Positions 8,843 to 30,145 of a stretch of DNA of 64,000 nucleotides are shown in pieces. The DNA lies in NCBI GenBank assembly GCA_964392615.1, contig CAYMRB010000001.1, positions 7,343 through 71,342 of the forward strand, in the 5' to 3' direction. The position numbers and the translations under genes were made by a program. The notes under the pieces are model-generated. The model saw only the letters and a list, made by a program, of their open reading frames with translations. It ran no database searches and was not told where the DNA came from. The stretch is from an uncultured Planctomycetia bacterium (GTDB lineage Bacteria; Planctomycetota; UBA8108). Positions within the stretch are counted from its first letter, which is position 1; every line of letters starts with the position of its first letter.

Positions 8843-8918
8843 GGCGCCTCCGTCCGGCGGCGGGCGGTCCCCTCTCTCGACGCCAGTGTACGCGGAGACG
8901 ATCAGCGACCCAAGCGCG

Positions 8919-10103
8919 TCAGCGCGGCTTCTTCTTCCACGCCCGCACCCAATCGATCGAGTAAGTCGACGGCAGGTCGTCATCGCGCGGCAGGCCGAAC
9001 CACTTCGGCATCGTCTCGCTGTCGAAGTTCAACGTCAGCGGCTGGTGCCACGAACCGTTCGGACCGCGGCGCACGAGCTGGCCGTCGAAGTAGAACTTGA
9101 TCTCGTCCTCGTCCCACTCGAGCCCGTAGACGTGAAAGTCGTCGGCAAGGTCCTGCGGCGCGATGAACGCGCTGCCGCGACTCCAGTGGTTCTTCTTGGT
9201 CGGCGTGTGGAACACGTGCACGTTCATGTTCACCTTGCGCTCGAAGCCCTTCGCGCCGCCGCCGATCTCGAACACGTCGATCTCGGTCCACCACTCCTTG
9301 CAGGAGTCGTAGAACCAGAACGAGCTCGACCCCGCCGACCGCATCGGCCTGGCGCGCACTTCGAAGTAGCCGTACCGCACGCGCGTCTTGCTCTTCACGG
9401 CGGCGCAGGAGTACGAGTGGAAGCCCCGCTCCCGCAAGCGCTCCGGAATCGTGTCGCGGCGCATCGTGAGCTCGAGCCGGCCGTCTTTGACGCGAACGTT
9501 CTCGGGACGGAAGAGACCCGGCTGGCGCCCCTTCCACTGCGGGTTCGTCGGCCACCATCTCGCGCGATCGAGCTCGGTGCCGTTGAACTCGTCGCTGAGC
9601 GGCTCGTACCGCGCCCATCCGCCCGCGTTCTTCTGGTCGGACAGCGGGAACGCGTCCGTCGTGCGCACGGATGCGGGCGCTGCCGCGTCGGGCTTCACGT
9701 CGCGCCAGCCTTTGCGACCCGGCTCCGGCGTCGACGGCGGGCGATCGAAGATTCCCTCGAGCGCCGGAAACTCGGTGCGGCTGAACGACATCTTCTGCAG
9801 CATCGGCCGCCACACATTGTCAGCCTCGGTCGCGGGAAGGAAGGCGACCGCGTGCACGACACCGCCTCGGGGCAGCGCGAAGGGCCCGCGATAGCGGCGC
9901 GACGACTCCCAGGTCGCCGCCTTCGTCTGCAGCCAATAGCGGATCTCGACGCCGGGCTTCGACGTGAGCGAGACCTTGCCGAACGGATCCCGGCGGGCGG
10001 TCGGCGCTTCGGGGGCGTCGTCGGCACCTCGAGCGCCGGTCGACGTGATCGATAGACAGGCCACGAACGCGATGAGACGCAGGTGGGACGTGGACGTGGA
10101 CAT
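8919..10103 (-). CDS. secreted glycoside hydrolase family 16 (beta-glucanase/laminarinase-like)
   Basis: 394-aa ORF with a signal peptide (LIAFVACLSITSTGARG). It carries the GH16 catalytic signature E-I-D-V-F-E (WWTEIDVFEIGGG) and the fold is jelly-roll-like. The opposite-strand ORF 8667..10055 is compositionally junk. Confidence 0.8.
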   Translation of the reverse strand: MSTSTSHLRLIAFVACLSITSTGARGADDAPEAPTARRDPFGKVSLTSKPGVEIRYWLQTKAATWESSRRYRGPFALPRGGVVHAVAFLPATEADNVWRPMLQKMSFSRTEFPALEGIFDRPPSTPEPGRKGWRDVKPDAAAPASVRTTDAFPLSDQKNAGGWARYEPLSDEFNGTELDRARWWPTNPQWKGRQPGLFRPENVRVKDGRLELTMRRDTIPERLRERGFHSYSCAAVKSKTRVRYGYFEVRARPMRSAGSSSFWFYDSCKEWWTEIDVFEIGGGAKGFERKVNMNVHVFHTPTKKNHWSRGSAFIAPQDLADDFHVYGLEWDEDEIKFYFDGQLVRRGPNGSWHQPLTLNFDSETMPKWFGLPRDDDLPSTYSIDWVRAWKKKPR

Positions 10104-11824: not shown

Positions 11825-12961
11825 TTGAACCGAGAGATCCCGATGCACACGAGCCCTCGACAGCCCATCGGCCGACGCCGTTTCGTCCGCACGCTCGCCA
11901 GTGCCGCCGCCGCTGCCGGCGGCATTCGCGCGCTCGCCGCGGCGACGCCCGCCATTCCCGCCCGCAAGCCCGCCCGGAAGCTCGCGCTCGGCTTCGACAA
12001 CTTCAGCGTCCGCGCGCTCGGTCTGAAGGCGCCGGCGCTCGTGGACTACGCCGCGCAGCTCGAGGTCGACTCGCTGCTCCTGTCGGACCTGAAGGTCTAC
12101 GAGCGCCGCGACGACGCGTATCTCGCCGATCTGCGCAAGCGGGCCGACGATGCCGGCATCGCGCTTCAGGCCGGCACGGGCGGCATCTGCCCGACGTCGC
12201 CGCGCTGCATCAAGGACTACGGCACGCCCGAGGAGCACCTCGCGTTGGCGATCCGCATCGCGCGCGCGCTCGGCTCGTCCGTCGTGCGCTGCTTTCTGGG
12301 CGGCCGCGGCGAACGCGAGGGACCCGGCGGCATCCAGCGGCACATCGCGTCGACGGTCGAGGTCTGCAAGAAGGTGCGCTCGCTCGCGCTCGACAGCGGC
12401 GTCAAGATCGCCGTCGAGAACCACGCGGGCGACATGCAGGCGCGCGAGCTCGTCGGGCTCATCGAGGCCGCCGGCAAGGACTACGTCGGCGCGACGGTCG
12501 ACTCGGGCAACGCGACGTGGACACTCGAGGACCCGGTGCGCAACCTCGAGCTCCTCGGTCCGTACGTCGTCTCCGCCGGCATCCGCGACTCGATGGTGTG
12601 GACGGATGACAACGGCGCCGTCGCGCAATGGACCGCGCTCGGCGACGGCTGCGTCGACATGAAGAAGTACGTCGAGACGTTCGCGCGGCTGTGCCCGAAC
12701 GCGCCGTTCCAGCTCGAGATTATCTCGGGCGCGCAGCGAGCGTTCCCGTACCTGAAGCCGGACTTCTGGGGGCCGTACGAGGACGTGCGCGCGGTCGATC
12801 TCGCCGCGTTCCTCGCGTTGGCGAAGAAGGGGCGACCGATGCAGCGCTTCCAGCCGCCGAAGGGAGCCGCTCGTCAGCAAGCGATCCGCGAGTTCCAGAA
12901 GACAGAGCTCGAGCGCAGCATACGATACGCGAAGGACGTGCTCGGAGTGGGGCGGCGATGA
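11825..12961 (+). CDS. TAT-exported sugar phosphate isomerase/epimerase (xylose isomerase-like TIM barrel)
   Basis: 378-aa ORF with a twin-arginine signal (GRRRFVRTLASAAAAAGG) and TIM-barrel-like motifs (KIAVENHAG, GATVDSGNATW). Composition is well balanced. The antisense ORF 11714..12880 is Arg/Leu-rich junk. The stop overlaps the next start (ATGA at 12958-12961). Confidence 0.75.
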   Translation: MNREIPMHTSPRQPIGRRRFVRTLASAAAAAGGIRALAAATPAIPARKPARKLALGFDNFSVRALGLKAPALVDYAAQLEVDSLLLSDLKVYERRDDAYLADLRKRADDAGIALQAGTGGICPTSPRCIKDYGTPEEHLALAIRIARALGSSVVRCFLGGRGEREGPGGIQRHIASTVEVCKKVRSLALDSGVKIAVENHAGDMQARELVGLIEAAGKDYVGATVDSGNATWTLEDPVRNLELLGPYVVSAGIRDSMVWTDDNGAVAQWTALGDGCVDMKKYVETFARLCPNAPFQLEIISGAQRAFPYLKPDFWGPYEDVRAVDLAAFLALAKKGRPMQRFQPPKGAARQQAIREFQKTELERSIRYAKDVLGVGRR

Positions 12962-14205
12962 GGATGGCTGGGCACATCTATCTTGTCGCGGCCATCGCGG
13001 TGCTCGTCGCGCGAGGCGCGACCGGCGACGACAAGCCTCTCGACTCGGACGTCGACTACACCGTCCGCGTCGACACGATCAGCTCGGGCTTCGACAAGAA
13101 GACCTGCTGGGTCCATCCGCGCGCCGGCACGATCCCGCCGGCAACGCGCGACGCGAAGCCGATCGTCGTGCTGACGATGCAGAAGCTCCTCCTGACGGGA
13201 AGCGACGTCTTCTACGCGCTCAACGAGATGCGCACCGACGACCTCGGCGCGACCTGGACGGAGCCGACCGAGCACAAGGAGGCGCTCGGACGCCGCGACG
13301 AACCGGACGGCGTGATCGTCGCGACGTGCGATTTCACGCCCAAGTGGCACCGGCAGACCGGCAAGCTGCTCGGCACGGGGCAGACCGTGCGCTATCGCCG
13401 CAATCGCGTCATGGGAGTGCGTCGACGCGAGGTGTCGTATGCGGTGTACGATCCGACGCGACGCGCCTGGACGCCGTGGGCGATGCTCGAGCTCCCCGAT
13501 CGACCGGAATTCGCGAACGCGGGATCCGGCAGCGCGCAGCGCTTCGATCTCGAAAACGGCGACATCCTGCTGCCGATTTACTTCAAGAAGCCGACGGCCA
13601 AGCAGTACAGCGCAACGGTTGCGCGCTGCCGCTTCGACGGCACGACATTGCGGTACGTCGAACACGGCTCCGAGCACACGGTCGCGGTACAGCGCGGATT
13701 CGCCGAGCCGTCGATCACGCGCTTTCGCGGCCGCTTCTTCCTGACGCTGCGCAACGACGTCAAGGGCTACGTGACGTCGGGCGACGACGGCCTGCATTGG
13801 GACGATCCGCGACCGTGGACGTTCGACGACGGCAAGGAGCTCGGCAGCTACAACACGCAGCAGCACTGGGTCGCGCACGGCGACGCGTTGTTCCTCGTCT
13901 ACACGCGGCGGGGAGCGAACAACGATCACGTCTTCCGCCACCGCGCGCCCCTCTTCATCGCCCGCGTCGATCCGCAGCAACTGTGCGTCGTGCGAGCGAG
14001 CGAACGCGTGCTCGTCAAGGAGCGCGGTGCGAGGCTCGGCAACTTCGCCGTGACGGAGGTCAACCCCGACGAGACGTGGGTGACCGTCGCCGAGTGGATG
14101 CAGACGCGCGGCCCCAACCCGCACGACTTCCGCGTACCGATGAAGTACGGGTCGGACAACGCCGTGTTCGTAGCGCGAATCCGGTGGAGCCGGCCGTCTC
14201 GCTGA
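12958..14205 (+). CDS. secreted BNR/Asp-box repeat protein (sialidase-like beta-propeller glycosidase)
   Basis: The start at the internal Met, MRMAGHIYLVAAIAVLVARG (signal anchor), overlaps the upstream stop. The listed upstream extension 12628.. is Arg-rich junk. Two Asp-box motifs are present, RTDDLGATW and TSGDDGLHW. Confidence 0.65.
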   Translation: MRMAGHIYLVAAIAVLVARGATGDDKPLDSDVDYTVRVDTISSGFDKKTCWVHPRAGTIPPATRDAKPIVVLTMQKLLLTGSDVFYALNEMRTDDLGATWTEPTEHKEALGRRDEPDGVIVATCDFTPKWHRQTGKLLGTGQTVRYRRNRVMGVRRREVSYAVYDPTRRAWTPWAMLELPDRPEFANAGSGSAQRFDLENGDILLPIYFKKPTAKQYSATVARCRFDGTTLRYVEHGSEHTVAVQRGFAEPSITRFRGRFFLTLRNDVKGYVTSGDDGLHWDDPRPWTFDDGKELGSYNTQQHWVAHGDALFLVYTRRGANNDHVFRHRAPLFIARVDPQQLCVVRASERVLVKERGARLGNFAVTEVNPDETWVTVAEWMQTRGPNPHDFRVPMKYGSDNAVFVARIRWSRPSR

Positions 14206-16776
14206 TCACTCCAGCGTCGGCCGGGCGACCTCTCCGCGCAGCTGGGCCTGGCCGGGCTCCTTCTCGTACACGCCGTAGAACATCGACGTGCTGTCGAGCC
14301 ACAGCGTGATGCGGTGCATCTCCTCCTTGGAGAGCTTCACGTCGTAGTGGCCGCTCTTCAGCAGCGCGTACAGCTTCGACGCCTTGGCACCGAAGCGACC
14401 GGGCGTCGTGCGCAGGCCGTTGCCGTAGTCGTGGAAGCCGTACTTGCGCACGAGATTGTTGTACGACGTGTACCAGCGGTTGACGATCGGCTCGGCGGCC
14501 AGGCTGATCGGCTTCTTTTCGTGCGTCGCGTGACAGTCGACGCAGTGCTCATCCAGCACGGGCTGTACCAGCCGCGGATAGCTGAACGGGTTCGAGCCGT
14601 CGACGTCGGGCGCGAGCCGCGACGGAGGACGCTGCAACGCGAGCGGCGTGGCCGCGGCGGACGGCGCCCGTTGCTGAGGCTCGTGGCACCCGGCGCAGAC
14701 GAGTGTCTCGCCTTCTCGCACGTGTGTCGCCGACCGCATCGACTGCACGGCGAGGCCGTCTTCGTCGAGCGCCTGGAAGAACAGCTCCCGGTTGGCCGGC
14801 ACTGTGAAGTGAGCGCTGCCGTCCGCTTCGACCGGCGCCGTACCGAGCACCCAGCGTACCGGGACGACCGAGTCGCCCGCCGATTTCACGCGCAGGGCGG
14901 TCTCATGAGGCCGCAGCCCTCCCGACGGCACGCTCATCGGCAAGACCTGATAGACGCGCAGGGCCTTGATCTCGGTGCCCGCGGGCCACGGCTTGATGCT
15001 GTCGTAAACGTCGAGCACGGCCATCGTGCCCTCGCGCGGCTTGTCGCTCGACAGCGAGGCGGCGTTGACCGGATCGGTCTCGGGACCACCGCGGGCGATG
15101 TTCGGTGTCGCCAGAGGTTTCGGTCGCGGCACGAGCGGGATCGGGCTGAGGCACGCGATCTCCCGATCGCGGTAGATCAGCTCCTTGTTGCCGAACGCAT
15201 CGACGAGATAGATGCCGTAATTGCCCGGCTGGAAACCACGCCCCTGCATGCCGGAGCGCGGCTGCATCGCGGCATCGTAGACGCACAGGTAGTAGTCCTC
15301 GCTCAGAGCCCACGGCGTGCCGTAGACCTGCGCGCCGCCCTGGCTCTCGGGGAAGCGAATCTCCGGCGTGATGCGCTTGACGGGCGCCATCGCATCGTCG
15401 TCGGGCACGCTCGGGTCGATGAGGATCAGCGAACCATACGCCTGACCGTGGTGCGGCGCCGCCGTTCCGATGAACTTCTGTGAGCCGGGAATCGCGCGGC
15501 AGTCGAGCTCCATGTCGGGGCGAGCGCGACGCGGCGAGAAGTTGCCGTGCACGGCCCGCGGGTTGCGCCCGTCGAGCGTCGTGACCCAGGGCATGTGGGC
15601 AGTGCAACCGTGGCGATCGACATAGTCCCAACGCGTCCAGAGGATCTGTCCGTCATTGGTCACGCTGGGGTGCCACTCGTTGGTCTCATGGAAGCTCAGA
15701 CACGTGATGTCCGAACCGTCAGCCGCCATGTCGTAGAGCGTGTAGGTCGGACAGACGCGACCGCAGCGCAGGTAGCCGCCGCGCCGCTCGCTGATGAACG
15801 CAACGCGATCGTTCGGCAGGAAGCACGGGTCGAAATCGTTCCACGTGCCGTCGGTGAGCTGTCGCAGACCGCTGCCGTCGGCGTTCACCTTGAAGACGTG
15901 GAAGCAGCGGCCTTCGGCCCAGTGCCCGCGGCTGGCGTCGGTGTGGTGCCGGTGTCTCTGGTCGCCCTTGCACTCGACGTAGGCGAAGACGATCTCCTTC
16001 GCGTCATAGGACAGATCGGGCGACAGGAACGAGCCGCCCTCGGCCTCCGGCCCGTGGACATTTCCCGAGCCGTCGAATCGCAGGCGCGGCGGCGTAGTCG
16101 GACCGCCCGTGAGCTTCTGCCCTTTCAGCCGGCCGTTCTCGACGACCGAATCGGCGAGCACGTCGCGCACCGTCGGCTTGTCGCTGAAGGCGTCCTCCAG
16201 CACATACAGCCCGCCGCCCGGCGCGGCGGCCATGCCGTAGTACTGGTCGCACATGTGGTTGAAGAGCGACCGATGATGCTTGATGAACAGAATCTCGTCG
16301 AAGTCGAGCAACGGGTTCGCGAGCGCGATGGCGCGGCGCACGCGGCAGACCTTCACGTAGATCTCGAAGCGCGCCCGATCGTCGCCGATCCCGGTCGCCT
16401 CGGCCTCTGCTCGCAACGCGGCCAAGCGCTCCCGCTGTGCCGCGAGATCCGGAGCTCCGCTCATGGCCTGAACGTCCGCGAGCAAGGCCGTCGTGCGCCG
16501 CAGGACGATGTCGAGCGGATCGCGATCCGTCGCGAGAATCGAGGCCTCGGGCCGATAGATCTCGCCGGCGATTTTGTCGAGATACGACCGCTTCTTGATG
16601 TCGGCCGTCAGCGCGATGTACTGGCCCTCCAGCTCGCTCAACGGCTTGCTGCCGTCGCGCTCCCACGGCAGGCCGGGCCCTGACTTCGCGACGGGGATCG
16701 CCTCTACAGCAGGGGCCGCTCGGCAGAGAAGAGCAAGGACCAGAGCGGCGAACGTCCTGGTGAGCGTCTGACGCAT
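14206..16776 (-). CDS. secreted beta-propeller (TolB/PD40-like) protein with a C-terminal dihaem c-type domain (two CXXCH)
   Basis: A signal peptide lies at the internal Met (MRQTLTRTFAALVLALLCRAAPAVEA). The upstream 105 codons of the listed ORF are Arg/Ser junk and overlap nfnB. WD/PD40-like blades are present (DGSGLRQLTDGTWNDFDPCF, DGSDITCLSFHETNEWHPSVTNDGQILWTRWDY). Two haem-c motifs, CAGCHEP and CVDCHATH, lie near the C-terminus. Confidence 0.7.
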   Translation of the reverse strand: MRQTLTRTFAALVLALLCRAAPAVEAIPVAKSGPGLPWERDGSKPLSELEGQYIALTADIKKRSYLDKIAGEIYRPEASILATDRDPLDIVLRRTTALLADVQAMSGAPDLAAQRERLAALRAEAEATGIGDDRARFEIYVKVCRVRRAIALANPLLDFDEILFIKHHRSLFNHMCDQYYGMAAAPGGGLYVLEDAFSDKPTVRDVLADSVVENGRLKGQKLTGGPTTPPRLRFDGSGNVHGPEAEGGSFLSPDLSYDAKEIVFAYVECKGDQRHRHHTDASRGHWAEGRCFHVFKVNADGSGLRQLTDGTWNDFDPCFLPNDRVAFISERRGGYLRCGRVCPTYTLYDMAADGSDITCLSFHETNEWHPSVTNDGQILWTRWDYVDRHGCTAHMPWVTTLDGRNPRAVHGNFSPRRARPDMELDCRAIPGSQKFIGTAAPHHGQAYGSLILIDPSVPDDDAMAPVKRITPEIRFPESQGGAQVYGTPWALSEDYYLCVYDAAMQPRSGMQGRGFQPGNYGIYLVDAFGNKELIYRDREIACLSPIPLVPRPKPLATPNIARGGPETDPVNAASLSSDKPREGTMAVLDVYDSIKPWPAGTEIKALRVYQVLPMSVPSGGLRPHETALRVKSAGDSVVPVRWVLGTAPVEADGSAHFTVPANRELFFQALDEDGLAVQSMRSATHVREGETLVCAGCHEPQQRAPSAAATPLALQRPPSRLAPDVDGSNPFSYPRLVQPVLDEHCVDCHATHEKKPISLAAEPIVNRWYTSYNNLVRKYGFHDYGNGLRTTPGRFGAKASKLYALLKSGHYDVKLSKEEMHRITLWLDSTSMFYGVYEKEPGQAQLRGEVARPTLE

Positions 16777-16797
16777 AGGTAACTCCGTACGCGGATA

Positions 16798-16826
16798 GGG
16801 TCGAGGTCGAGCCTGATCTCTCGACC
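16798..16826 (-). terminator. hairpin GGTCGAG-N14-CTCGACC between nfnB and the downstream beta-propeller/dihaem gene
   Basis: 7-bp stem with a 14-nt loop in the 97-bp gap; no U-tract. It may attenuate read-through from nfnAB into the downstream gene. Confidence 0.2.
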
Positions 16827-16873
16827 GTCGATCGTAACTGTTCGCCGCCTGACGCGCAGCAGGATCTTCGGCT

Positions 16874-18307
16874 CTACCAGCTCCTGTCGCCGAGCAGGTA
16901 CGCGTCAATTTCGGCGGCCGCGTCGCGCCCGGCCCCCATCGCGAGGATGACCGTGGCGCCGCCAGTGACGATGTCGCCTCCCGCGAACACGGCCTTCTTC
17001 GAGGTGCGGAGACTGTTCTCAGACACCTTGATGTATCCCCACTTGTTCGTATCGAGATCCGGTGTCGACGACTGTACGAGCGGATTAGCACCGGTGCCGA
17101 TCGCGATAATCGCCATATCGAGCGGCGCCTCGAATTCGTCGCCCTCGATCGGCTGCGGTCGTCGCCGTCCGGAGTCGTCCGGCTCGCCGAGCTCCATGCG
17201 CTGGCAACGCACCGCGCGCAGCCAGCCGTCCTCCGTGCCGAGGAACTCGAGCGGGCTCGCCAGCGGGATCAGCTCGATGCCCTCTTGCTTGGCGTGGTGG
17301 ATCTCCTCGAGTCGCGCCGGCATCTCGGCTTCGGTGCGGCGATAGATGATCGACGCCTTGGCCGCCCCGAGCCGCAGCCCGGTGCGGATCGCATCGAGCG
17401 CCGTGTTGCCGCCGCCGAACACCGCGACGTTCTTGCCGGCGCAGTCGTACGTCGGCTGGTCGTACTCGGGGAAGCGGTACGCCTTCATCAAGTTGACGCG
17501 CGTCAGGAACTCGTTGGCCGAGTAGACCCCGTTGAGATGCTCGCCGGGCACGTTGAGGAAATACGGCAGACCGGCGCCCGTCGCGACGAAGACTGCGTCG
17601 TAGCCCTCCTCGCCGAGCAGCTCGTCGACGGTGACCGTCTTGCCGATCACGACGTCGGTCTCGAACTCGACGCCCATCTTGCGCATATTGTCGACCTCGC
17701 GCCGCACGATGTCCTTCGGCAGCCGGAACTCCGGAATGCCGTAGACCAGCACGCCGCCGATCTCGTGGAGCGCCTCGAACACGCGCACGCCGTGGCCCTT
17801 CTGGATCAGGTCGCCGGCGGCGCTCAGTCCCGCCGGCCCGCTGCCGACGATCGCCACGCGCTTGCCGGTCGCCGGCGCGATTTCGGGCAGCCCGATCTGG
17901 CCGGTCTTGATCTCCCAATCGGCGACGAAGCGCTCGAGGTTGCCGATGGCGAGCGAGTCCTTCTTCTTCGCCAGGACGCAGGTGCCCTCGCACTGGTCCT
18001 CCTGCGGACAGACGCGGCCCGTGATCGCGGGAAGGACGTTGTCCTCGCGCACCTTGGCCGCCGCTGCGAGGTAGTCGCCCTGGTGGACGAGCTCGATGAA
18101 CTCCTTGACCTTGACGCCGACGGGACAGCCGTCGACACAGACGGGATTCTTGCACGAGAGGCAGCGCAGCGCCTCTTGGACAGCGGGGTCGACGTCGAGG
18201 CCGAGATTGACCTCCTCGAAGTTGCGGCAGCGTTCGGTCGACAGCTGCTCGGGCATCTTCTGCCTGGGGATCGCGAGGCGCTCTTTGGGCTTCAGCGGAT
18301 TCGTCAT
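16874..18307 (-). CDS. nfnB: NfnB-type NADPH-dependent FAD/FeS oxidoreductase (glutamate synthase small-subunit/GltD-like; SudA-like)
   Basis: 477 aa. Two N-terminal [4Fe-4S] motifs (CLSCKNPVCVDGCP, CPQEDQCEGTC) are followed by GltD-like FAD/NAD(P) folds (RVAIVGSGPAGLSAAGDL, NVAVFGGGNTALD). It sits 4 bp (ATGA overlap) behind the PyrK-like partner. Confidence 0.85.
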   Translation of the reverse strand: MTNPLKPKERLAIPRQKMPEQLSTERCRNFEEVNLGLDVDPAVQEALRCLSCKNPVCVDGCPVGVKVKEFIELVHQGDYLAAAAKVREDNVLPAITGRVCPQEDQCEGTCVLAKKKDSLAIGNLERFVADWEIKTGQIGLPEIAPATGKRVAIVGSGPAGLSAAGDLIQKGHGVRVFEALHEIGGVLVYGIPEFRLPKDIVRREVDNMRKMGVEFETDVVIGKTVTVDELLGEEGYDAVFVATGAGLPYFLNVPGEHLNGVYSANEFLTRVNLMKAYRFPEYDQPTYDCAGKNVAVFGGGNTALDAIRTGLRLGAAKASIIYRRTEAEMPARLEEIHHAKQEGIELIPLASPLEFLGTEDGWLRAVRCQRMELGEPDDSGRRRPQPIEGDEFEAPLDMAIIAIGTGANPLVQSSTPDLDTNKWGYIKVSENSLRTSKKAVFAGGDIVTGGATVILAMGAGRDAAAEIDAYLLGDRSW

Positions 18308-19218
18308 CGGGGCAGCGCCTCCTTCCCGTCATCGACCTCCGGATGACGCGCGGCGAGCTGGCACTGCTCGCTGACGCGGGCCGCGTCGATCTCCGGATGC
18401 GCACAGTACTGTTCGAGCGACTGACGCTCGGCGCCGAGGTAGCTCTGATTGCGCCGCGCGAGCACCTCGAAGTCGACGTCGTGAGCGTCGAACTCGGGGC
18501 CGTCGACGCACGCGAACTCCGATTTGCCGCCGACGAGCACGCGACAGCCGCCGCACATGCCCGTTCCGTCGACCATGATCGAGTTCAAGCTGACGACCGT
18601 TCGAATGCCGTGCGGCTGCGTGACCTCGGCGACGGCTCGCATCATCGGAATCGGACCGATCGCGAGAACGTAATCGACGCGCTCGCCGGACGCGATGATG
18701 GCGGCAAGCTGATCGGTGACGAAGCCCTTCGTGCCGTAGCTACCGTCGTCGGTCGTGATGTGAAGCTCGTGGCTGACGGCGCAGATCTCCTCTTCGAGGA
18801 TGACGAGTTCGCGATTGCGCGCACCGACGATCGCGTGCACGCGATTGCCGGCTTCCCATAGGGCGCGCGCGGTCGGATACGCGATCGCGGTGCCGACTCC
18901 GCCACCGACGACCACGACCGTGCCGAAGTTCTCGATCTCCGATGCGGCCCCCAGCGGCCCGACGACGTCCAGGAGCGCGTCGCCGGCCTCGAGCGCGTTC
19001 ATCAGATGCGTCGTCTTGCCGATCGCCTGCACGATGACCGTGATCGTGCCGGCGTCGCGATCGACCGAAGCGATCGTCAACGGTATCCGCTCGCCGCGAT
19101 CGTGAACGCGGACGATGACGAACTGCCCTGCGGCCCATTTGCGGGCGACTCGCGGCGCCCGGATCTCGAGCCGCTTGACGGAGGGGGCCAGGCTCACCGC
19201 CTGGATGATCTCGAACAT
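18304..19218 (-). CDS. nfnA: NfnA-type small subunit (PyrK-like ferredoxin-NADP reductase fold with a [2Fe-2S] site; SudB-like)
   Basis: 304 aa. Motifs are the FAD/NAD fold GQFVIVRV...RIPLTIASVDRDAGTI and a C-terminal cluster GMCGGCRVLVGG...FACVDGPEF. It overlaps nfnB by 4 bp. The ATG lies at 19216-19218 with GGAGG upstream. Confidence 0.85.
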   Translation of the reverse strand: MFEIIQAVSLAPSVKRLEIRAPRVARKWAAGQFVIVRVHDRGERIPLTIASVDRDAGTITVIVQAIGKTTHLMNALEAGDALLDVVGPLGAASEIENFGTVVVVGGGVGTAIAYPTARALWEAGNRVHAIVGARNRELVILEEEICAVSHELHITTDDGSYGTKGFVTDQLAAIIASGERVDYVLAIGPIPMMRAVAEVTQPHGIRTVVSLNSIMVDGTGMCGGCRVLVGGKSEFACVDGPEFDAHDVDFEVLARRNQSYLGAERQSLEQYCAHPEIDAARVSEQCQLAARHPEVDDGKEALPR

Positions 19219-19511: not shown

Positions 19512-21011
19512 ATGAAAAGCAAGAGCGAAGCACGACGACTCGCGACGGGCCGGCTATTGACCGCGCTGGCAGCGGTCCTCGTGGTGAGCGGTTGCGTCGG
19601 GCCGAGACGCGATCGGTTCCGCTACGACCGCGTCGCCGCGACCGCCGCGGAGTGCAACGCGCGATCACCCGAACGCGACGCGGGCAGCTCGAAGATCAGC
19701 GGTGCGCCGCTCGATCTGCGCAGCGCCGTCGAGCTCGCCCGAGCGGGCAATCCGGACATTCGCATCGCCCTCGCTTCGCTTCGCCAAGCCGAGGCCGCCC
19801 GGCGCGCCGTGTCCGCGGCGTTTCTTCCCGTCCTCGCGCTCGACACCGGCTACCTGCGCGCGGATGCGCCGTCGCAGGCTCTCTTCAAGTCGATCGACGC
19901 GCGGCGCCTCGCGCCGGGGACGGACTTCAACGACCCGGGCGACTTCGAGAACTTCGAGACCGGCTTGACCGCGCGCTACAATCTCTACCGCGGCGGCCAG
20001 GACGCGCTCGACAGCTGGATCGCGCAAGCGGGAGAAGACATCTCCCGGCTCGATCTCTCCGCGGTGCGCAACGGCGTCGTCGCCGCCGTGATCGTCGCGT
20101 ACTACGACGTGCTGATGGCCGACGAGCTGATCGAGACCGCCGTCGCGTCGGTAGCGACCGTGCGCGCGCAGCTGCGCGAGTCCGAGGCGAAGTGGAAGGC
20201 CGGGAACGCGCTGAAGTCCGACGTGCTGTCGCTCGAGGTGCGAGCGGCCGAGGCCGAGGAACGACGCATCCGCGCCGAGAACGCCGCCAAGCTCGCCGTC
20301 GCCGCGCTCGCGAACCTGCTCGGCCTCGACGCGGACGCGCAGCTGGAGCTCGCCGATCCCGATGCGCCCTCCGAGACCCAGGCCGCGGTCGTGCCGGAAG
20401 CGGCGCACCTGCCCGCCACGTACGAAGACGCCCTCGCCGAAGCCTTGACGCGACGCCCGGAGCTGCACCGCGCGCGCCGCTTCGTCGAGCGCAGCGCGCT
20501 CCAGCACTCGAAGTCGCGGCGGACGTTCCTGCCGCGCGTCGATGCCGAGGCGCGAGCGTACTGGGACGACTCGCAGTTCGAGTACGACGATAACCGAACG
20601 AATTGGTTCGTCGGCGTGAACCTGTCTTGGGACCTCTTCACCGGCGGTCGCCGCACTGCGGGCGTCGAGAGGACCCGCGCGCTCCTGAACGAGATGCTCG
20701 AGGCGGATCGTCGGCAGACGCTCGCGGTGCAGCTCGACGTCAAGAGCGCGGTCTTGCGTCTCGAAGAGGCTCGCGAGCGTCTGCGCGTCAGCGACACGAG
20801 CGTCGCGCAGGCAGACGATTCGCTCGATCTCGTGCGTGAGCAATACGAGGGCGGCACGGCGGCCGTGACGCGCTATCTCGAAGCCGAGTTCGATTTGACC
20901 CGCGCACGGATGCGGCGGACGAACGCGGCGTTCGATCTCAGAAAGGCCCAGGCTGACGTCGCGCGCGGCATCGGCCGTTTCGCCGACGCAACCCCTGACA
21001 CCGAGGAGTGA
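19512..21011 (+). CDS. outer-membrane efflux lipoprotein, TolC/NodT family (OMF)
   Basis: 499 aa with a signal plus lipobox (LVVSGC). Two long coiled-coil/beta-barrel OEP repeats with conserved Gly/Asn patterns are present. GGAG lies 7 nt before the ATG. It is the first gene of an OMF-MFP-RND operon. Confidence 0.85.
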   Translation: MKSKSEARRLATGRLLTALAAVLVVSGCVGPRRDRFRYDRVAATAAECNARSPERDAGSSKISGAPLDLRSAVELARAGNPDIRIALASLRQAEAARRAVSAAFLPVLALDTGYLRADAPSQALFKSIDARRLAPGTDFNDPGDFENFETGLTARYNLYRGGQDALDSWIAQAGEDISRLDLSAVRNGVVAAVIVAYYDVLMADELIETAVASVATVRAQLRESEAKWKAGNALKSDVLSLEVRAAEAEERRIRAENAAKLAVAALANLLGLDADAQLELADPDAPSETQAAVVPEAAHLPATYEDALAEALTRRPELHRARRFVERSALQHSKSRRTFLPRVDAEARAYWDDSQFEYDDNRTNWFVGVNLSWDLFTGGRRTAGVERTRALLNEMLEADRRQTLAVQLDVKSAVLRLEEARERLRVSDTSVAQADDSLDLVREQYEGGTAAVTRYLEAEFDLTRARMRRTNAAFDLRKAQADVARGIGRFADATPDTEE

Positions 21012-21017
21012 GCTGTC

Positions 21018-22118
21018 GTGAAGGACGGACGCTTCAAGACGATCGGCACGTGGATCGCCGGACTTGTCGGCATCGCTGCGATCGTGCTCGCGATCCTGTG
21101 GATGAGCGGCGCATTCACGCCCGGACGCATCGACCCGGGAATCCTCCCGCCGCCCGCCGGCTTGCCACAGCCGAAGAGCGTCGCGACGGTCGCGTCGCAA
21201 ACCGTGCCCGAGTGGTACGAGGCGGTCGGCACCGTGCGATCGGCCGTCGAGGCGCGCATCGCGCCCCAGGTGACGGGGCGAATCATCGACATCGCCGTCG
21301 AGGAGGGCAGCGCGGTCTCGAAGGGCGACATCATCGCATCACTCGACGATGAGGCGTTCCGCGCGCGCCTCGAGCAGGCTCGCAGCGGCGTGCGATCGGC
21401 CGAGGCGACCTTCGAGCAGGCCGCGTCGAGCCATGCGCGAATCCGCCAGCTGATCGCGAAGGAAGCGGCGACGACGGAGCAGCTCGAGGCCGCCGCAGCG
21501 CTGGAGAAGCAAGCCGACGCCGCCGTCGAGTCTGCGCGCCAGAAGCTCGAGGAGGCGCGCGTCGCGCTCGGCTACACGCGCATCGCGTCGCCCCTGAGTG
21601 GCGTCGTCGCGCGGCGCGAGTCGGACTCGGGCGACCTCGCATGGCCTGGTCGCACGCTCGTCGTCGTCCACGATCCGAGCCGCTTGCGTCTCGAGGCGAG
21701 CGTACGCGAAGGGTTGATCGGCGGCGTCGCGGTCGGTCGCACGGTCGAAATCTGGATCACGGCGCTGTCGAAGACGCTGCCCGGCTCGATTGACGAGATC
21801 GTGCCGTCGGGCGATCCGGTCAGCCGTAGCTTCGTCGTCAAGGCGAGCCTGCCCGCGGAGGCCGTCGCGGACGTGTATCCGGGCATGTTCGGCAAGCTGC
21901 GACTGCGCACCGGAGAGCGGCAAGCGATGATGGTGCCGGCCGACGCGGTGACGACGGTCGGTCAGCTCGACACCCTGCTCGTCAAGCAGGGCGAGCGCTG
22001 GTTGCGGCGGTACGTGACCGTCGGCGAACGCCGTGGCGACGAGATCGAGATCCTGTCCGGGCTGTCCGGCGGCGAGACGATCGGGCTTGCAGGAGGTGAT
22101 GATCGTGTCGACGAATGA
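21018..22118 (+). CDS. RND efflux periplasmic adaptor (MFP, HlyD-like)
   Basis: The start is GTG, preceded by GAGGAG. It has an N-terminal TM anchor, a coiled-coil hairpin (EQARSGVRSAEATFEQAAS...) and beta-barrel/MP domains (GYTRIASPLSGVV). It overlaps the RND gene start. Confidence 0.85.
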   Translation: MKDGRFKTIGTWIAGLVGIAAIVLAILWMSGAFTPGRIDPGILPPPAGLPQPKSVATVASQTVPEWYEAVGTVRSAVEARIAPQVTGRIIDIAVEEGSAVSKGDIIASLDDEAFRARLEQARSGVRSAEATFEQAASSHARIRQLIAKEAATTEQLEAAAALEKQADAAVESARQKLEEARVALGYTRIASPLSGVVARRESDSGDLAWPGRTLVVVHDPSRLRLEASVREGLIGGVAVGRTVEIWITALSKTLPGSIDEIVPSGDPVSRSFVVKASLPAEAVADVYPGMFGKLRLRTGERQAMMVPADAVTTVGQLDTLLVKQGERWLRRYVTVGERRGDEIEILSGLSGGETIGLAGGDDRVDE

Positions 22119-25100
22119 CGCGCCCAAAGGCCTCATCGCACGGCTCGTCACGACGTTCCTGGAGGGCCGGCTCGCGATCCTGATGGTCGCGGCTGCGCTC
22201 GCGCTCGGCGTCGCGGCGGTGCTGTTGACGCCCCGCGAGGAAGATCCGCAGATCGTCGTGCCGCTCGCCGATATCCACGTGCGCTTTCCGGGCGCGAGCG
22301 CCGAGGAGGTCGAGAAGCTCGTCGCGACGCCGTTGGAGCGGCTCCTGTGGCAGATCGATGGCGTCGAGTACGTCTACTCCGTCTCGAGCCGCGACGCGGC
22401 GGTCGTCACGGTACGCTTCTTCGTCGGCGAAGATCGCGAGCGGTCGCTCGTCAAGCTGCACAATCGCATCGCGTCGCACATCGATCAGGCGCCTCCCGGT
22501 GTCACGGGCTGGGTGATCCGCCCGATCGAGATCGACGACGTCCCGATCGTCACGTTCACGCTCTACTCGAAGCGCTACGACGATCACGAGCTGCGCCGCA
22601 TCGGCGAGGAAACTCTCGCGCGGCTCGAGTCGGTCGAGGACATCTCGCGCACGCGGATCGTCGGCGGCCGGCGCAGCGAGGTGCGGGTCGAGCTCGACCG
22701 CGAGCGTCTCGCGTCGCGCGGACTGTCGGCGCTCGAGGTCGTGAAGGCGCTCGAGGTCGCTGACGCATCGATGACGGCCGGCAGCTTCGATCGAGGCGAC
22801 CGCCGCGTGAGAGTCGACAGCGGGCCGTTCCTGACGCGAGTCGAGGACGTCCAAGGCCTCGTCGTCGGCGCGCACGATGGCAGACCGGTGTACGTCGAAG
22901 ACGTCGCCACGATCAAGGAACGACCGGAAGAGCCGCAGAGCTACACGCGCATCGGCATCGGCCCTGCGGCGACCGATGCGGCCGGCGAGCCGGGTGAAAC
23001 GTATCGCGCGGTCACGCTCGCGGTCGCGAAGAAGAAGGGCACGAATGCGGTCGCTGTCGCAAACGCCGTCATCGCGCGCATGGAGGAGCTGCGGCGCGAT
23101 GTGATCCCGTCGGAGGTAGACGTGCGCGTCACGCGCAATCAGGGCGAGAACGCTGACGCGAAGGTGAACGAGCTCCTGTCGTCGCTCCTGTTCGCGATGG
23201 TCTCGGTCGTCGGACTCCTGCTCCTGACGCTCGGGTGGCGCGAAGGGCTGATCGTCGCGCTGGCGGTGCCGATCAGCTTCTCGCTCGCGCTGTTCGTCAA
23301 TCTGATCTTCGGGTTCACGATCAACCGCGTCACGCTGTTCGCGCTCATCCTGACGCTCGGCCTCGTCGTCGATGATCCGATCACGAACGTCGACAACATC
23401 CAGCGACACATCCTGCTGCGTCGGCGTCGGCCGCGCGCGGCGACGCTGTTCGCCGTCAGCGAGGTGCTGCCGCCGGTGATCCTGTCGACGTTGACGATCA
23501 TCGTGTCGTTCCTGCCGATGTTCTTCATCACCGGCATGATGGGGCCGTACATGGGGCCGATGGCCGTCAACGTGCCGCTGACGGTGACGTTCTCGACGGT
23601 CGCGGCGATCTGCATCGTGCCGTGGGCCGCGTATCGGCTGCTGCGCAAGAAGGGGCGCGACACGGATGCGGAGGAAGCGGGAGAACCCGACAGCGCGGAC
23701 GCGGGCAGCACGTCCGCCACGACCGGCGCGACGTCCGCAGACATGGCGGCTGCCGGCAGTCGCTCGCTGCTCGCGCGAACCTATCGCGCCATCGTCGCGC
23801 GGTTCCTCGACTCGCGCCCGATGCGATGGGGCTTGATCGGCGGCATCGTCGTGCTGCTCGGGCTGTCGGGATACCTGCCGCTCGGCCGTCATGTGCCGAT
23901 GAAGATGCTGCCGTTCGACAACAAGAGCGAGCTCGGGCTGCTCATCGACCTCGACGAGGGCACGACGCTCGAGGCGGCCGACGCGGTCGTGCGCGACTTC
24001 GAGCGCTACCTGTTCCGGGTGCCGGAGGTCGAGGACTTCGAGTCGTACGTCGGCACGTACAGTCCGATCGACTTCAACGGACTCGTGCGCCACTACTACT
24101 TCCGCACGCAGCCGCACCTCGCGGACATTCGCATCAACCTCGCACCGAAGGAGCTGCGCCGACAGCAGAGCCACGAGATCGCGTTGCGCTTGCGCAAGGA
24201 CATCGAGGCGATCGCGGCGCGACACGGCGCGGTCGTGACGATCCTCGAGACGCCGCCCGGTCCGCCGGTGTTCTCGGGCATCGTCGCCGAGCTCTACGGG
24301 CCGGCGGATCTCGGTTGGGATGGTCTCGTCGCGGAGTCGCGCGCCGTGATGGATCGCATGCGCGAGGAGCCGGGTGTCGTCGACGTCGATCGCACGGTAC
24401 CGGCGAACCACAAGAGGCTGCGCTTCGTGCTCGACAAGGAAAAGGCCGGGCTGCACGGCATCGCGACCGACAGCGTCGTCCGGACGTTGCGCGTCGTACT
24501 CGACGGGATCGATCCGGCCACGGTCCACCGTGCGGGCGAGCGCGCGCCGCTGGCGGTGCACGTCGGGCTGGCGCGTGACAAGCGATCCGGCGTCGCGGAG
24601 CTCGGACGCGTCGCGGTGAAGGGCTCGCGGGGCGAGCTCGTGCCGCTCGATGAGATCGGCGCGTTCGAGGAGGTGCCCGCCGACGTGCCGATCTACCACA
24701 AGAACCTGCGCCGCGTCGTCTTCGTCTACGGCGAGACGGCCGGGCTGCCGCCGGCGGAAGCGGTGATCGACCTCGGCGCGCACTTCCGCGAGCAGCCGCT
24801 CGCACGTGGCGTCGAGATCGACTGGGCAGGCGAAGGCGAGTGGGACATCACGCTGCGCGTCTTCCGCGACCTCGGGCTCGCGTTCGGCGCGGCGATGATC
24901 GGCATCTACATCCTGCTCGTCATCCAGACGAAGTCGTTCGTGATGCCGATGATCATCATGAGCGCCATCCCGCTGACCGCGATCGGCATCCTGCCGGGCT
25001 TCTGGCTGCTCAATCTCGTCTTCGACAACGTCTACGGGCCGGTCGGCGGCTACGCCAATCCGGTGTTCTTCACCGCGACCGCGATGATCGGCATGATCGC

Positions 25101-29514: not shown

Positions 29515-30084
29515 TCACTGACCCGCGCGCCGGACGCGAGCCAGGAGGACCGCCAAGCCCGCCTCGAGGTCGCGCTGCACCGTCTTCGTCGAGACGTCGA
29601 GCTGCTCGGCAATCTCGCCGTGCTTCAGCCCGCCGAAGAACTTCAGCTCGATGATCTGGCCCAACCGCCGCGATCGTTCGCCGCCGCGTTCGAGCTCCGC
29701 GAGAGCCTGGCTCACCTCGTCGGGTTCCATCTCGAGTTCGTCGCGACGCCACCCCTTGTCGCGCAGCTCATCCCTGGCCCGCGCGAAGAATCGAAAGCGC
29801 ACCTTCCGGCGCTTGGCGTGATTGATGAGAATCTGCCGCATGCGCCGCACGGCGATGGCGAAGAATTGCCGCCGGTCCTGCCATTCGATCTCGTCGCTTC
29901 CGAAGAGACGCAGGTACGTCTCGTGGACGAGATCGCGGGGGCTCAGGGTGTGGCCATCTCGCTCGTTGCGAATCAGTCGACCGGCACGAGACAGAAGCTC
30001 CTCGTAGACGAGGGACACGGCCTGTTCCCTCGAGACGGAGTCTCCGGCCGCCGCCGCTCGCAGGAGTCGCGTGATCTCTCGCAT
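29515..30084 (-). CDS. ECF sigma-70 factor, TIGR02999 (Sig70_X6)-like, the type genomically paired with Ser/Thr kinases
   Basis: The N-terminus MREITRLLRAAAAGDSVSREQAVSLVYEELLSRA...GHTLSPRDLVHETYLRL matches the characteristic family opening (EITxLL...GD...LxxLVYxELRR...GHTLQ...LVHEAYLRL). The sigma-4 HTH is LKFFGGLKHGEIAEQLDVSTKTVQRDL. The stop lies 5 bp before the kinase start. Confidence 0.85.
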   Translation of the reverse strand: MREITRLLRAAAAGDSVSREQAVSLVYEELLSRAGRLIRNERDGHTLSPRDLVHETYLRLFGSDEIEWQDRRQFFAIAVRRMRQILINHAKRRKVRFRFFARARDELRDKGWRRDELEMEPDEVSQALAELERGGERSRRLGQIIELKFFGGLKHGEIAEQLDVSTKTVQRDLEAGLAVLLARVRRAGQ

Positions 30085-30116
30085 CGTCCGCGCTGCCCTC
30101 GGGGCCCTCATCTACA

Positions 30117-30145
30117 CCGGGGACCATTGTCGGAAAAACTTGTCC
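30117..30145 (-). promoter_or_regulatory. candidate sigma70-like promoter of the ECF sigma gene (-35 TTGGAA, 17-nt spacer, -10 GACAAT) inside an AT-rich island containing the imperfect palindrome GGAAAAAC-N6-GTTTTCC
   Basis: Read on the minus strand the sequence is TTGGAAAACGGACAAGTTTTTCCGACAAT, lying 33-61 nt upstream of the sigma ATG. It is the only AT-rich stretch in the 168-bp divergent intergenic region. Two GAGGG boxes sit just before the ATG. Identified by eye only. Confidence 0.3.

What the first reader, a model, noticed from the sequence alone, without database searches (positions are those of the whole stretch)
14206..16776. Secreted beta-propeller protein with a C-terminal dihaem domain is encoded immediately downstream of nfnAB on the same strand
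The protein combines a signal peptide, PD40/TolB-like blades and two CXXCH motifs (CAGCHEP, CVDCHATH) 46 residues apart at the C-terminus. This propeller-plus-dihaem architecture is shared with periplasmic redox enzymes such as the hydrazine synthase alpha subunit and other propeller-cytochrome fusions. There is no other evidence here for any particular chemistry. Its position 97 bp after the cytoplasmic flavoprotein pair NfnAB, separated only by a weak hairpin, is odd and could be coincidental.
Basis: partly seen in the sequence, partly recalled or inferred. Interest (0 to 1): 0.55.

Follow-up and report, generated by a model that had tools for sequence, protein, structure and literature searches.

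The report
Orphan hydrazine-synthase-alpha-like dihaem propeller protein
This gene encodes an exported two-haem beta-propeller protein that is a true but distant relative of the alpha subunit of anammox hydrazine synthase; it lacks that enzyme's special catalytic residues and partner subunits, belongs to a very large uncharacterised family of planctomycete and verrucomicrobial proteins that looks tied to sugar and glycan use, and sits next to nfnAB only by accident.

Summary
Window 14206-16776 (-) encodes an 856-aa protein with a signal-peptide-like N-terminus, a TolB-like six-bladed propeller and two CXXCH motifs (aa 694 and 745). It lies 97 bp after an NfnAB-type gene pair.

The link to HzsA is real homology:
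- Pfam HZS_alpha: E 6e-23.
- Family profile against PDB 5c2v_A: E 5e-29.
- AlphaFold model (pLDDT 86) against 5c2v_A by Foldseek: E 5e-27 over about 830 columns.

It is not a hydrazine synthase:
- The NCBIfam equivalog scores 48 bits against a cutoff of 800.
- The Tyr591 and Cys303 equivalents are absent.
- No beta/gamma-like gene lies in the 64 kb window.
- The residue aligned to the distal His of haem alphaII is kept (H810).

Both CXXCH motifs are invariant across a family of about 1500 50%-identity clusters (E<=1e-30).

nfnAB adjacency is coincidental: 0 of 87 family loci carry nfnAB, and 0 of 63 nfnAB loci carry this gene.

Two lines point to glycan or sugar processing, but the chemistry is unknown. 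First, 91 of the 120 nearest homologues carry N-terminal discoidin or NPCBM modules. Second, neighbours recur: sulfatases, TAT-exported Gfo/Idh/MocA oxidoreductases and a RhaT/kinase/aldolase/SDR cluster.

It is a new member of a known but uncharacterised kind, of moderate interest.

The parts
14206..16776 (-). Gene for the 856-aa HzsA-like dihaem propeller protein (stop codon 14206-14208)
   Evidence: It is 100% identical to database protein P0001.
16699..16776 (-). Signal-peptide-like N-terminus (aa 1-26, MRQTLTRTFAALVLALLCRAAPAVEA)
   Evidence: In the model, helix 2-17 is followed by a disordered linker. The cleavage site is inferred, not predicted by a dedicated tool.
16312..16644 (-). N-terminal helical domain (about aa 45-155). 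In most close homologues a discoidin or NPCBM module precedes this region; here the module is absent.
   Evidence: Helices 48-151 with pLDDT above 95. Comparison with P0002 and P0004.
15157..16299 (-). TolB-like beta-propeller (about aa 160-540). It carries family-specific invariant polar motifs: HMCDQ 174-178, ERRGGYLRC 330-338, HETNEW 363-368, TRWDYVDR 381-388, HGN 410-412 and PHHGQ 441-445.
   Evidence: Secondary structure. Foldseek TolB and HzsA matches. Invariant columns. These motifs are not shared by HzsA, except GN of HGN.
14680..14973 (-). HZS_alpha middle domain (Pfam PF18582, aa 602-699), a beta-sandwich ending in the first haem motif
   Evidence: E 6.2e-23, 81.6 bits, cutoff 26.6. 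42 of 42 diverged family members match.
14683..14697 (-). CXXCH 1 (CAGCH, aa 694-698), equivalent to the HzsA haem alphaI site. It is followed by near-invariant Glu699, with no Tyr591 equivalent.
14530..14544 (-). CXXCH 2 (CVDCH, aa 745-749), equivalent to the HzsA haem alphaII site
14347..14349 (-). His810 codon. It aligns with HzsA His772, the distal ligand of the bis-His haem alphaII.
   Evidence: The alignment pairs chain H745 (His772, offset 27) with the profile His. The residue is invariant in 120 close homologues and at least 90% conserved in diverged ones. Codon checked.
14209..14649 (-). C-terminal helical cytochrome-c-like domain (about aa 710-856), ending in the conserved ...RPTLE-COOH
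16777..16873 (-). 97-bp spacer between the nfnB stop and the start codon. GGAG lies 7-10 nt before the ATG. No terminator or promoter consensus was found.
16874..19218 (-). Upstream NfnAB-type pair (nfnB 16874-18307, nfnA 18304-19218). These are neighbours only and are not part of the system.
   Evidence: The adjacency is absent from all relatives.

Best explanation
The gene encodes a Sec-exported, periplasmic or cell-surface c-type dihaem protein of the HzsA (hydrazine synthase alpha) superfamily, and it stands alone.

Anatomy (shown): signal peptide; helical N-domain; TolB-like propeller; HZS_alpha beta-sandwich, whose last strand leads into haem motif 1; and a helical C-terminal domain carrying haem motif 2.

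How it most likely works (inferred):
- Haem 2 is a bis-His (His749/His810) low-spin relay haem, as in HzsA.
- Haem 1 is His698-ligated and canonical, unlike the Tyr-ligated, Zn-associated haem alphaI of HzsA. By homology with HzsA it should sit against the propeller, although the coordinates could not be inspected. There a family-specific set of invariant Arg, Asp, Glu, His and Cys residues would form the substrate site.
- Electrons pass between that site and an external periplasmic redox partner through the two haems.

It does not make hydrazine. It has no functional link to the cytoplasmic NfnAB encoded upstream.

The substrate is most likely a glycan- or sugar-derived compound. The basis is that most close relatives carry discoidin or NPCBM binding modules, and that family genes recurrently sit beside sulfatases, TAT-exported Gfo/Idh/MocA oxidoreductases, DUF1080 genes and a RhaT/FGGY-kinase/aldolase/SDR sugar-catabolic cluster. 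The window itself places the gene beside exported BNR-like, xylose-isomerase-like and porphyranase-like GH16 genes. The actual reaction is not known.

Confidence by part:
- Family identity: about 0.95.
- Not a hydrazine synthase: about 0.9.
- nfnAB adjacency coincidental: about 0.9.
- Glycan or sugar link: about 0.45.
For: Homology to HzsA:
- Pfam HZS_alpha E 6.2e-23.
- phmmer against 5c2v_A E 1.6e-7, with both CXXCH motifs aligned.
- Family profile against 5c2v_A E 4.9e-29 in four stretches.
- Model with pLDDT 86.3 and pTM 0.88. Its best PDB match is 5c2v_A: E 4.9e-27, 827 columns, TM 0.55/0.61.

Not HzsA:
- NF052339 scores 47.8 bits against a cutoff of 800.
- Tyr591 aligns to a variable Gln702, and Cys303 aligns to Phe413.
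- No CCP/MauG-type or second-propeller partner was found among the window's long ORFs or by tblastn.
- A beta/gamma-like neighbour occurs in only 2 of 87 family loci.
- PMC12758564 reaches the same conclusion for other non-anammox homologues.

Haem sites:
- Both motifs are invariant.
- His810 aligns with His772.

Family size and constraint:
- 8450 50%-identity clusters at E<=1e-3 and 1517 at E<=1e-30.
- At least 592 stretches in species-representative genomes across Planctomycetota, Verrucomicrobiota, Kiritimatiellia and Lentisphaerae.
- 60-83% identity across those lineages.

nfnAB:
- 0 of 87 family loci have NfnA or NfnB within 10 kb.
- 0 of 63 nfnAB loci with downstream sequence have this gene.

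Glycan link:
- 42 discoidin plus 49 NPCBM among the 120 nearest clusters.
- Laminin_G_3, PA14, CBM_4_9 and F5/8C in diverged members.
- Recurrent neighbours.
- 12 of 85 family loci against 0 of 80 control nfnAB loci carry two or more sugar-catabolic families.
- Window neighbours are a GH16 close to porphyranases, a TAT-signal TIM barrel and a BNR-like protein.
Against: - No neighbour family occurs in more than 14 of 85 loci, so there is no obligate partner. The window's own neighbours (BNR-like, TIM barrel, GH16) are not found next to relatives.
- PVC genomes are rich in sulfatases and Gfo/Idh/MocA genes. The control set (nfnAB flanks) is taxonomically unmatched, and the query representatives came from the family loci themselves. 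The enrichment is therefore only indicative.
- The window protein itself has no carbohydrate-binding module.
- Haem binding, haem ligation and the position of haem 1 relative to the propeller are inferred from homology. Model coordinates could not be inspected.
- Met680 is invariant. It might be a sixth ligand of haem 1, which would make both haems pure relays.
- The family occurs in both aerobic and strictly anaerobic lineages, which constrains any O2-dependent chemistry.
Confidence: 0.6

Rival explanations
1. It performs HZS-like nitrogen chemistry, that is N-oxide, hydroxylamine or ammonia conversion at haem 1, using a beta/gamma-type or other partner encoded elsewhere in the genome.
For: It is a full-length homologue of HzsA, with both haem sites and the distal His of haem II retained. 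A few family members are fused to, or adjacent to, CCP/MauG-type dihaem plus propeller modules. PMC10732223 suggests that HZS-like enzymes act on alternative substrates.
Against: Tyr591 and Cys303 are absent. The propeller residues that are invariant in this family are not those of HzsA. There is no partner in 64 kb, and only 2 of 87 loci have one. No nitrogen-cycle gene recurs in the neighbourhoods.
Confidence: 0.12
2. The propeller is a non-redox glycan-active catalyst (a lyase or hydrolase like the beta-propeller polysaccharide lyases), or simply a binding platform. The haems would then be structural, or inherited relics that serve only as an electron conduit.
For: The propeller matches TolB binding platforms best, and also matches oligogalacturonate lyase PL22 (E about 1e-7). 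Carbohydrate-binding modules are frequent. Met680 is invariant and could make haem 1 six-coordinate.
Against: Both haem motifs and the distal His are under near-absolute conservation across about 1500 clusters. That is hard to explain for a relic. The PL22 match is a generic six-blade similarity with no sequence signal.
Confidence: 0.2
3. It is functionally coupled to NfnAB: co-transcribed with it and part of one redox module.
For: Same strand, a 97-bp gap, and no recognisable terminator or promoter between the genes.
Against: NfnAB is a cytoplasmic flavoprotein pair, while this protein is exported. The adjacency occurs in 0 of 87 family loci and 0 of 63 nfnAB loci.
Confidence: 0.03

Closest known systems
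Hydrazine synthase alpha subunit HzsA (Kuenenia stuttgartiensis kuste2861; PDB 5C2V/5C2W)
   Same: The domain order is the same: N-domain, six-bladed propeller, HZS_alpha middle domain with the first CXXCH, and a C-terminal domain with the second CXXCH. The whole-length structural match has E 4.9e-27. The GN loop at the Cys303 position and the distal His of haem alphaII are retained.
   Different: Only about 17% identity. The NCBIfam equivalog scores 48 of the 800 bits needed. There is no Tyr591 axial ligand and no Cys303. The propeller residues that are invariant in this family differ from the HzsA residues aligned to them. No hzsB or hzsC partner genes are present. The organism is a heterotrophic Pirellulaceae-like planctomycete, not an anammox bacterium.
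Non-anammox HzsA homologues co-located with fused beta-gamma homologues (clades I-IV of Hagglund et al. 2025, PMC12758564; Phycisphaerae UBA1845 hzs-like genes, PMC10732223)
   Same: These are HZS_alpha-domain dihaem propeller proteins in Planctomycetota and other phyla. They lack Tyr591 and Cys303, and their function is unknown.
   Different: Those were defined by an adjacent beta-gamma-like gene, and the clade I proteins are reported to lack the His772 equivalent. This protein and its tight family are nearly always stand-alone (85 of 87 loci), keep the His772 equivalent, and usually carry discoidin or NPCBM modules.
TolB / PD40 beta-propeller proteins
   Same: The six-bladed PD40-type propeller is the best non-HzsA structural match (E about 1e-11).
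   Different: There is no TolB N-terminal domain. TIGR02800 scores 25 bits against a cutoff of 343. The protein has two added haem-c domains.
Quinohaemoprotein dehydrogenases and propeller-plus-cytochrome sugar dehydrogenases
   Same: The logic is shared: an exported propeller catalytic domain joined to a c-type cytochrome relay, sometimes with carbohydrate-binding modules. This comparison rests on general knowledge of those enzymes.
   Different: There is no PQQ-type propeller signature or Pfam PQQ hit. The blade number and fold lineage differ. There is no evidence for any organic cofactor.

Membership tests
Hydrazine synthase alpha subunit (HzsA, NCBIfam NF052339 equivalog) | Whole-protein score above the curated equivalog cutoff (800 bits) | tested here: not met
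   47.8 bits, E 5e-13, local match only
Hydrazine synthase alpha subunit (HzsA) | Three-part architecture (propeller, middle domain with haem alphaI, C-terminal domain with haem alphaII) | tested here: met
   Foldseek 5c2v_A E 4.9e-27 over 827 columns. Profile match in four stretches.
Hydrazine synthase alpha subunit (HzsA) | Haem alphaI ligated by Tyr591, with His587 and Cys303 diverted to a zinc ion | tested here: not met
   CSGCHYGSY in HzsA against CAGCHEPQQ here. YGNC in HzsA against HGNF here. Positions 700-703 are variable in the family.
Hydrazine synthase alpha subunit (HzsA) | Bis-His haem alphaII with distal His772 | tested here: met
   His810 aligns with chain H745, which is His772. 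It is invariant in close homologues. Actual ligation cannot be tested here.
Hydrazine synthase alpha subunit (HzsA) | Encoded with hzsB and hzsC (or fused hzsBC) and assembled into an alpha-beta-gamma complex | tested here: not met
   No CCP/MauG-type or partner-propeller gene in the window. Only 2 of 87 family loci have one.
Hydrazine synthase alpha subunit (HzsA) | Hydrazine synthesis from NO or hydroxylamine plus ammonium | not testable with these tools
   Needs biochemistry
HZS_alpha domain-containing proteins (Pfam PF18582) | Domain match above the Pfam gathering score | tested here: met
   81.6 bits against a cutoff of 26.6, covering profile positions 2-98 of 98
c-type cytochromes | CXXCH motifs in an exported protein, conserved in homologues | tested here: met
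   Covalent haem attachment itself was not tested.
TolB (TIGR02800) | Score above the equivalog cutoff, plus the TolB N-terminal domain | tested here: not met
   25.3 bits against 343
PQQ quinohaemoprotein dehydrogenases / cytochrome cd1 nitrite reductase | PQQ-type or d1-type eight-bladed propeller signature | tested here: not met
   No PQQ or Cytochrom_D1 hit at E<=1 for this protein. No such PDB match among the top 50.
NfnAB-type flavoprotein pair (upstream neighbours) | Large subunit passes TIGR01316, small subunit passes NF004862, and the genes are adjacent | tested here: met
   559 bits (cutoff 472) and 405 bits (cutoff 220). The pair is conserved in 74 of 80 loci. The specific Nfn activity was not tested.

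The most novel reading that the evidence does not exclude
The tight, PVC-wide family to which this protein belongs may be an unrecognised class of haem-c-dependent, exported carbohydrate-active enzymes. These would be propeller active sites wired to the periplasmic electron pool through two haems, and usually targeted by discoidin or NPCBM modules. The family would also represent the heterotrophic stock from which the alpha subunit of anammox hydrazine synthase was recruited.
Probability: 0.3. Interest if true: 0.8.

Novelty: new member of a known kind. Interest (0 to 1): 0.42.

Why it matters
Hydrazine synthase was long regarded as unique to anammox bacteria, and its origin is debated. This locus belongs to a very large group of full-length HzsA homologues (about 1500 50%-identity clusters at E<=1e-30). 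Members share 60-83% identity across several PVC lineages, which is unusually high. They live in ordinary heterotrophs, mostly without beta/gamma partners.

If the link to carbohydrate-binding modules and sugar-catabolic loci holds, two things follow:
- A new haem-dependent activity in glycan turnover by Planctomycetota and Verrucomicrobiota.
- A concrete ancestral function for HzsA.

There is also a practical point for annotation. An 'HZS_alpha' hit here must not be read as anammox potential, and the neighbouring nfnAB should not be read as part of one system.

Tried and rejected
- Model coordinates are not exposed. Haem-pocket geometry, including the role of Met680 and contacts between the propeller and haem 1, could not be checked.
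- Literature searches returned no functional study of stand-alone HzsA-like proteins. They returned only the two comparative-genomic papers I went on to read and one spectroscopy paper on HZS itself.
- PDB sequence searches for the BNR-like and TIM-barrel neighbours gave nothing. NCBIfam gave nothing for them or for the 437-aa ORF.
- The window's neighbours (BNR-like, TIM, GH16, 437-aa ORF) were sought next to 87 relatives and not found. The local gene order is therefore not conserved.
- No second copy of the gene lies in the window. There is only a weak propeller match at 31420-31821, inside an EPTP/PD40 giant protein.
- Rejected readings: anammox potential, a quinohaemoprotein or cd1-type enzyme, an nfnAB-linked operon function, and the longer GTG-17091 start.
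Full report
**Observation**

The minus-strand ORF ending at 14206 is real. From the ATG at 16776 it encodes 856 residues. The mechanical ORF reaches a GTG at 17091, but that extension overlaps the end of the upstream gene and matches no homologue. A 100% identical database protein of 856 aa starts at the same ATG.

The N-terminus, MRQTLTRTFAALVLALLCRAAPAVEA, has the n/h/c layout of a Sec signal. Twelve homologues sampled across the close family, all with an intact N-terminus, also start with signal-like sequences.

CAGCH lies at aa 694-698 and CVDCH at aa 745-749. A shuffled protein of this composition is expected to carry 0.0096 CXXCH motifs, so two motifs have P of about 5e-5.

The upstream pair passes the curated thresholds of TIGR01316 and NF004862, the families that hold NfnB/SudA-type and NfnA/SudB-type subunits. 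The gap to it is 97 bp. That spacer folds no better than shuffled sequence (z -0.18). It holds no terminator-like or sigma-70-like site. A GGAG lies 7-10 nt before the ATG.

**What it is**

- Pfam finds the HZS_alpha middle domain (PF18582) at E 6.2e-23, covering profile positions 2-98 of 98 and ending exactly at the first CXXCH.
- The only solved structure found by sequence is HzsA, 5c2v_A (E 1.6e-7), with both CXXCH motifs in register.
- A profile of 42 diverged family members raises this to E 4.9e-29 in four stretches spanning propeller, middle and C-terminal domains.
- An AlphaFold2 model built on 120 homologues is confident (mean pLDDT 86.3, pTM 0.88).
- The model's best PDB match is again HzsA: E 4.9e-27, 827 aligned columns, TM 0.55/0.61, 17% identity. 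TolB propellers follow at about 1e-11, then generic six-bladed propellers.

The protein is therefore a full-length homologue of the hydrazine synthase alpha subunit, not merely a look-alike.

**Why it is not hydrazine synthase**

The NCBIfam equivalog for HzsA scores 47.8 bits against a cutoff of 800.

PDB chain numbering is 27 lower than the published numbering (chain H560 is His587). With that offset, the alignments give three results:

- The HzsA motif CSGCH-YGSY(591) corresponds to CAGCH-EPQQ here.
- YGNC(303) in HzsA corresponds to HGNF here.
- Positions 700-703 are variable across the family, while Glu699 is nearly invariant.

The Tyr-ligated, zinc-associated haem alphaI that defines HzsA (PMC12758564; PMC12607021) is thus replaced by an ordinary His-ligated site. 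By contrast, His810 aligns with His772, the distal ligand of the bis-His haem alphaII. It is invariant in the 120 close homologues.

The polar propeller motifs that are invariant in this family are not shared by HzsA, apart from the GN of HGN. These motifs are ERRGG, HETNEW, TRWDYVDR and PHHGQ.

No CCP/MauG-type dihaem or partner-propeller gene turned up among the window's long ORFs. I also took the beta-gamma-like portions of rare fused family members as queries. Such a partner appeared next to only 2 of 87 family loci (L062, L068), and none appeared in the window.

**The family**

- The word-indexed search returned 5460 hits. The 120 best were 62-83% identical over about 95% of the query.
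- The exhaustive search over 50%-identity representatives found 8450 clusters at E<=1e-3, 3514 at E<=1e-10 and 1517 at E<=1e-30.
- In species-representative genomes, at least 592 stretches encode relatives. They come from Pirellulales, Thermoguttaceae, Tepidisphaerales, Sedimentisphaerales, Phycisphaerales, Victivallales, Lentisphaerae, Kiritimatiellae and Verrucomicrobiota. A few contigs are binned to other phyla. Some MAGs contribute two loci.
- Both CXXCH motifs are present at fixed distances from the C-terminus in 120 of 120 close homologues, and in essentially every full-length diverged representative.
- Across 107 representatives only 18 columns are invariant. Seven of them are the two haem motifs and Gly696. 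The others include Arg607 and Met680.

Two comparative papers have noted non-anammox HzsA-like genes and concluded that they are unlikely to make hydrazine (PMC12758564; PMC10732223). Neither assigns a function, and both concentrate on copies adjacent to beta-gamma-like genes.

**The nfnAB question**

None of 87 family loci contains an NfnA or NfnB relative within 10 kb. Starting from NfnB instead, 80 related loci keep nfnA adjacent in 74 cases. None of the 63 with at least 1.5 kb of downstream sequence carries an HzsA-like gene. The closest homologue (83% identity) is preceded by a PAS sensor gene and a 203-aa gene, and is followed by a sulfatase.

The adjacency is specific to this genome. 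NfnAB is cytoplasmic and this protein is exported, so a functional link is very unlikely. Read-through transcription cannot be excluded from sequence alone.

**Clues to function**

1. *Fusions.* Of the 120 nearest clusters, 42 carry an N-terminal discoidin (F5/8 type C) domain, 49 carry an NPCBM domain, and 29, including this one, carry neither (counted). Diverged members add Laminin_G_3, PA14, CBM_4_9, fn3/PKD and once FGE-sulfatase. A few are fused to CCP/MauG or RoxA-like cytochromes with a second propeller.
2. *Neighbourhoods.* No partner is obligate: the most frequent neighbour family occurs in 14 of 85 loci. Still, a consistent theme appears:
   - TAT-signal Gfo/Idh/MocA oxidoreductases and sulfatases.
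   - Diverged paralogues in tandem.
   - In about 12 loci from Planctomycetia, Phycisphaerae and Kiritimatiellae, a cluster with an SDR immediately downstream on the same strand. The cluster also holds a RhaT-family symporter, an FGGY kinase, a class II ketose-bisphosphate aldolase, DeoC, a Zn-dependent dehydrogenase, a 2-hydroxyacid dehydrogenase, an MtaA/URO-D-like protein, an SMP30-like protein and DUF1080.
3. *Rough control.* The same family representatives were searched in the 6-kb flanks of 80 nfnAB loci. They hit almost nothing. Two or more sugar-catabolic families occurred in 12 of 85 family loci and in 0 of 80 control loci. The control is taxonomically unmatched and the queries came from the family loci, so this is only indicative.
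4. *The window itself.* The gene converges on an operon of two exported proteins: a TAT-signal xylose-isomerase-like TIM barrel and a BNR-like protein. Further on lies a GH16 whose nearest solved relatives include beta-porphyranases.

**Mechanism**

Shown: the architecture, conservation of both haem motifs, retention of the distal-His equivalent, and absence of the HzsA-specific ligands and partners.

Inferred:
- Haem 2 is a bis-His relay.
- Haem 1 is canonical His-ligated. By homology with HzsA it should sit against the propeller, where the family-specific invariant residues would form the substrate site.
- Electrons move between that site and an external periplasmic carrier.
- The substrate is glycan- or sugar-derived.

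The invariant Met680 could instead be a sixth ligand of haem 1. In that case both haems are relays and catalysis is entirely in the propeller.

The family's presence in strict anaerobes as well as aerobes argues against an obligately O2-dependent reaction.

**Verdict**

The protein is a new member of a catalogued but uncharacterised family (HZS_alpha domain proteins). It is not a hydrazine synthase and not an NfnAB partner.

The interest lies at family level: its size, its unusually strong conservation across PVC lineages, its carbohydrate-binding modules and its sugar-locus context. Together these make it a testable candidate for a haem-dependent glycan-processing activity and for the ancestry of HzsA.

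Noticed in passing
window 14203-14208: The stop codons of the target gene and of the convergent BNR-like gene abut with no spacer, forming the palindrome TGATCA. There is no room for a terminator between the two convergent genes.
   Followed up: partly
window 11825-14205 (+): A TAT-signal (RRRFV) xylose-isomerase-like TIM-barrel gene and a signal-peptide BNR-like gene overlap by ATGA at 12958-12961. They are probably a two-gene operon for exported proteins. Neither has a solved-structure relative by sequence or an NCBIfam name.
   Followed up: partly
window 8919-10103 (-): A GH16 glycoside hydrolase with a long N-terminal extension. Its nearest solved relatives are GH16 8ep4 (1e-57) and beta-porphyranases (1e-25 to 1e-23), which suggests a galactan-type substrate.
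   Followed up: partly
window 45665-48646 (+): An FG-GAP_3 repeat protein (993 aa). The 2025 GBE paper reports FG-GAP/CRTAC1-family genes flanking HzsA-like and beta-gamma-like genes in other taxa. Here it lies 29 kb away, and locus L001 has one 8 kb from the homologue.
   Followed up: no
window 35053-36333 (-): A URO-D-like protein. URO-D/MtaA-like genes recur within 7 kb of family members in 6 other loci.
   Followed up: no
window 29620-34308 (+): A 1562-aa secreted-type protein with EPTP repeats, PD40 repeats, Glucodextran_B and Ig-like domains. It is the only other weak tblastn match to the target's propeller in the window (25% identity, E 2e-7).
   Followed up: no
window 2813-8983 (-): A 2056-aa bacterial alpha-2-macroglobulin (MG2, bait region, A2M and bMG10 domains).
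   Followed up: no
window 19512-25398 (+): A TolC-like/HlyD/AcrB tripartite RND efflux operon, divergently oriented from nfnAB.
   Followed up: no
target protein aa 852-856 and 275-279; homologues P0002-P0120: All close homologues end in the same ...RPTLE-COOH, and diverged ones keep a similar P-x-L-E/Q end. This is unusual conservation for an extreme C-terminus. A His-rich loop (RHRHH, with Cys269 and Cys291) is conserved only in the close subfamily and could be a metal site.
   Followed up: no
L062 8217-10040 and L068 4697-6445: In these two loci only, a beta-gamma-like gene (propeller plus CCP/MauG-type dihaem) lies next to a close family member. Proteins P0141, P0169 and P0197 fuse such modules to the HzsA-like core. 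These are possible evolutionary intermediates between the stand-alone proteins and HZS-type complexes.
   Followed up: partly
L013, L019, L024, L043, L052, L059, L068, L072, L079, L086: Diverged paralogues of the same family sit in tandem with the close homologue, for example a 993-aa protein in L024 with a third CXXCH. Two MAGs contribute two close copies each. The family therefore behaves like an expanded, multi-copy enzyme family.
   Followed up: partly
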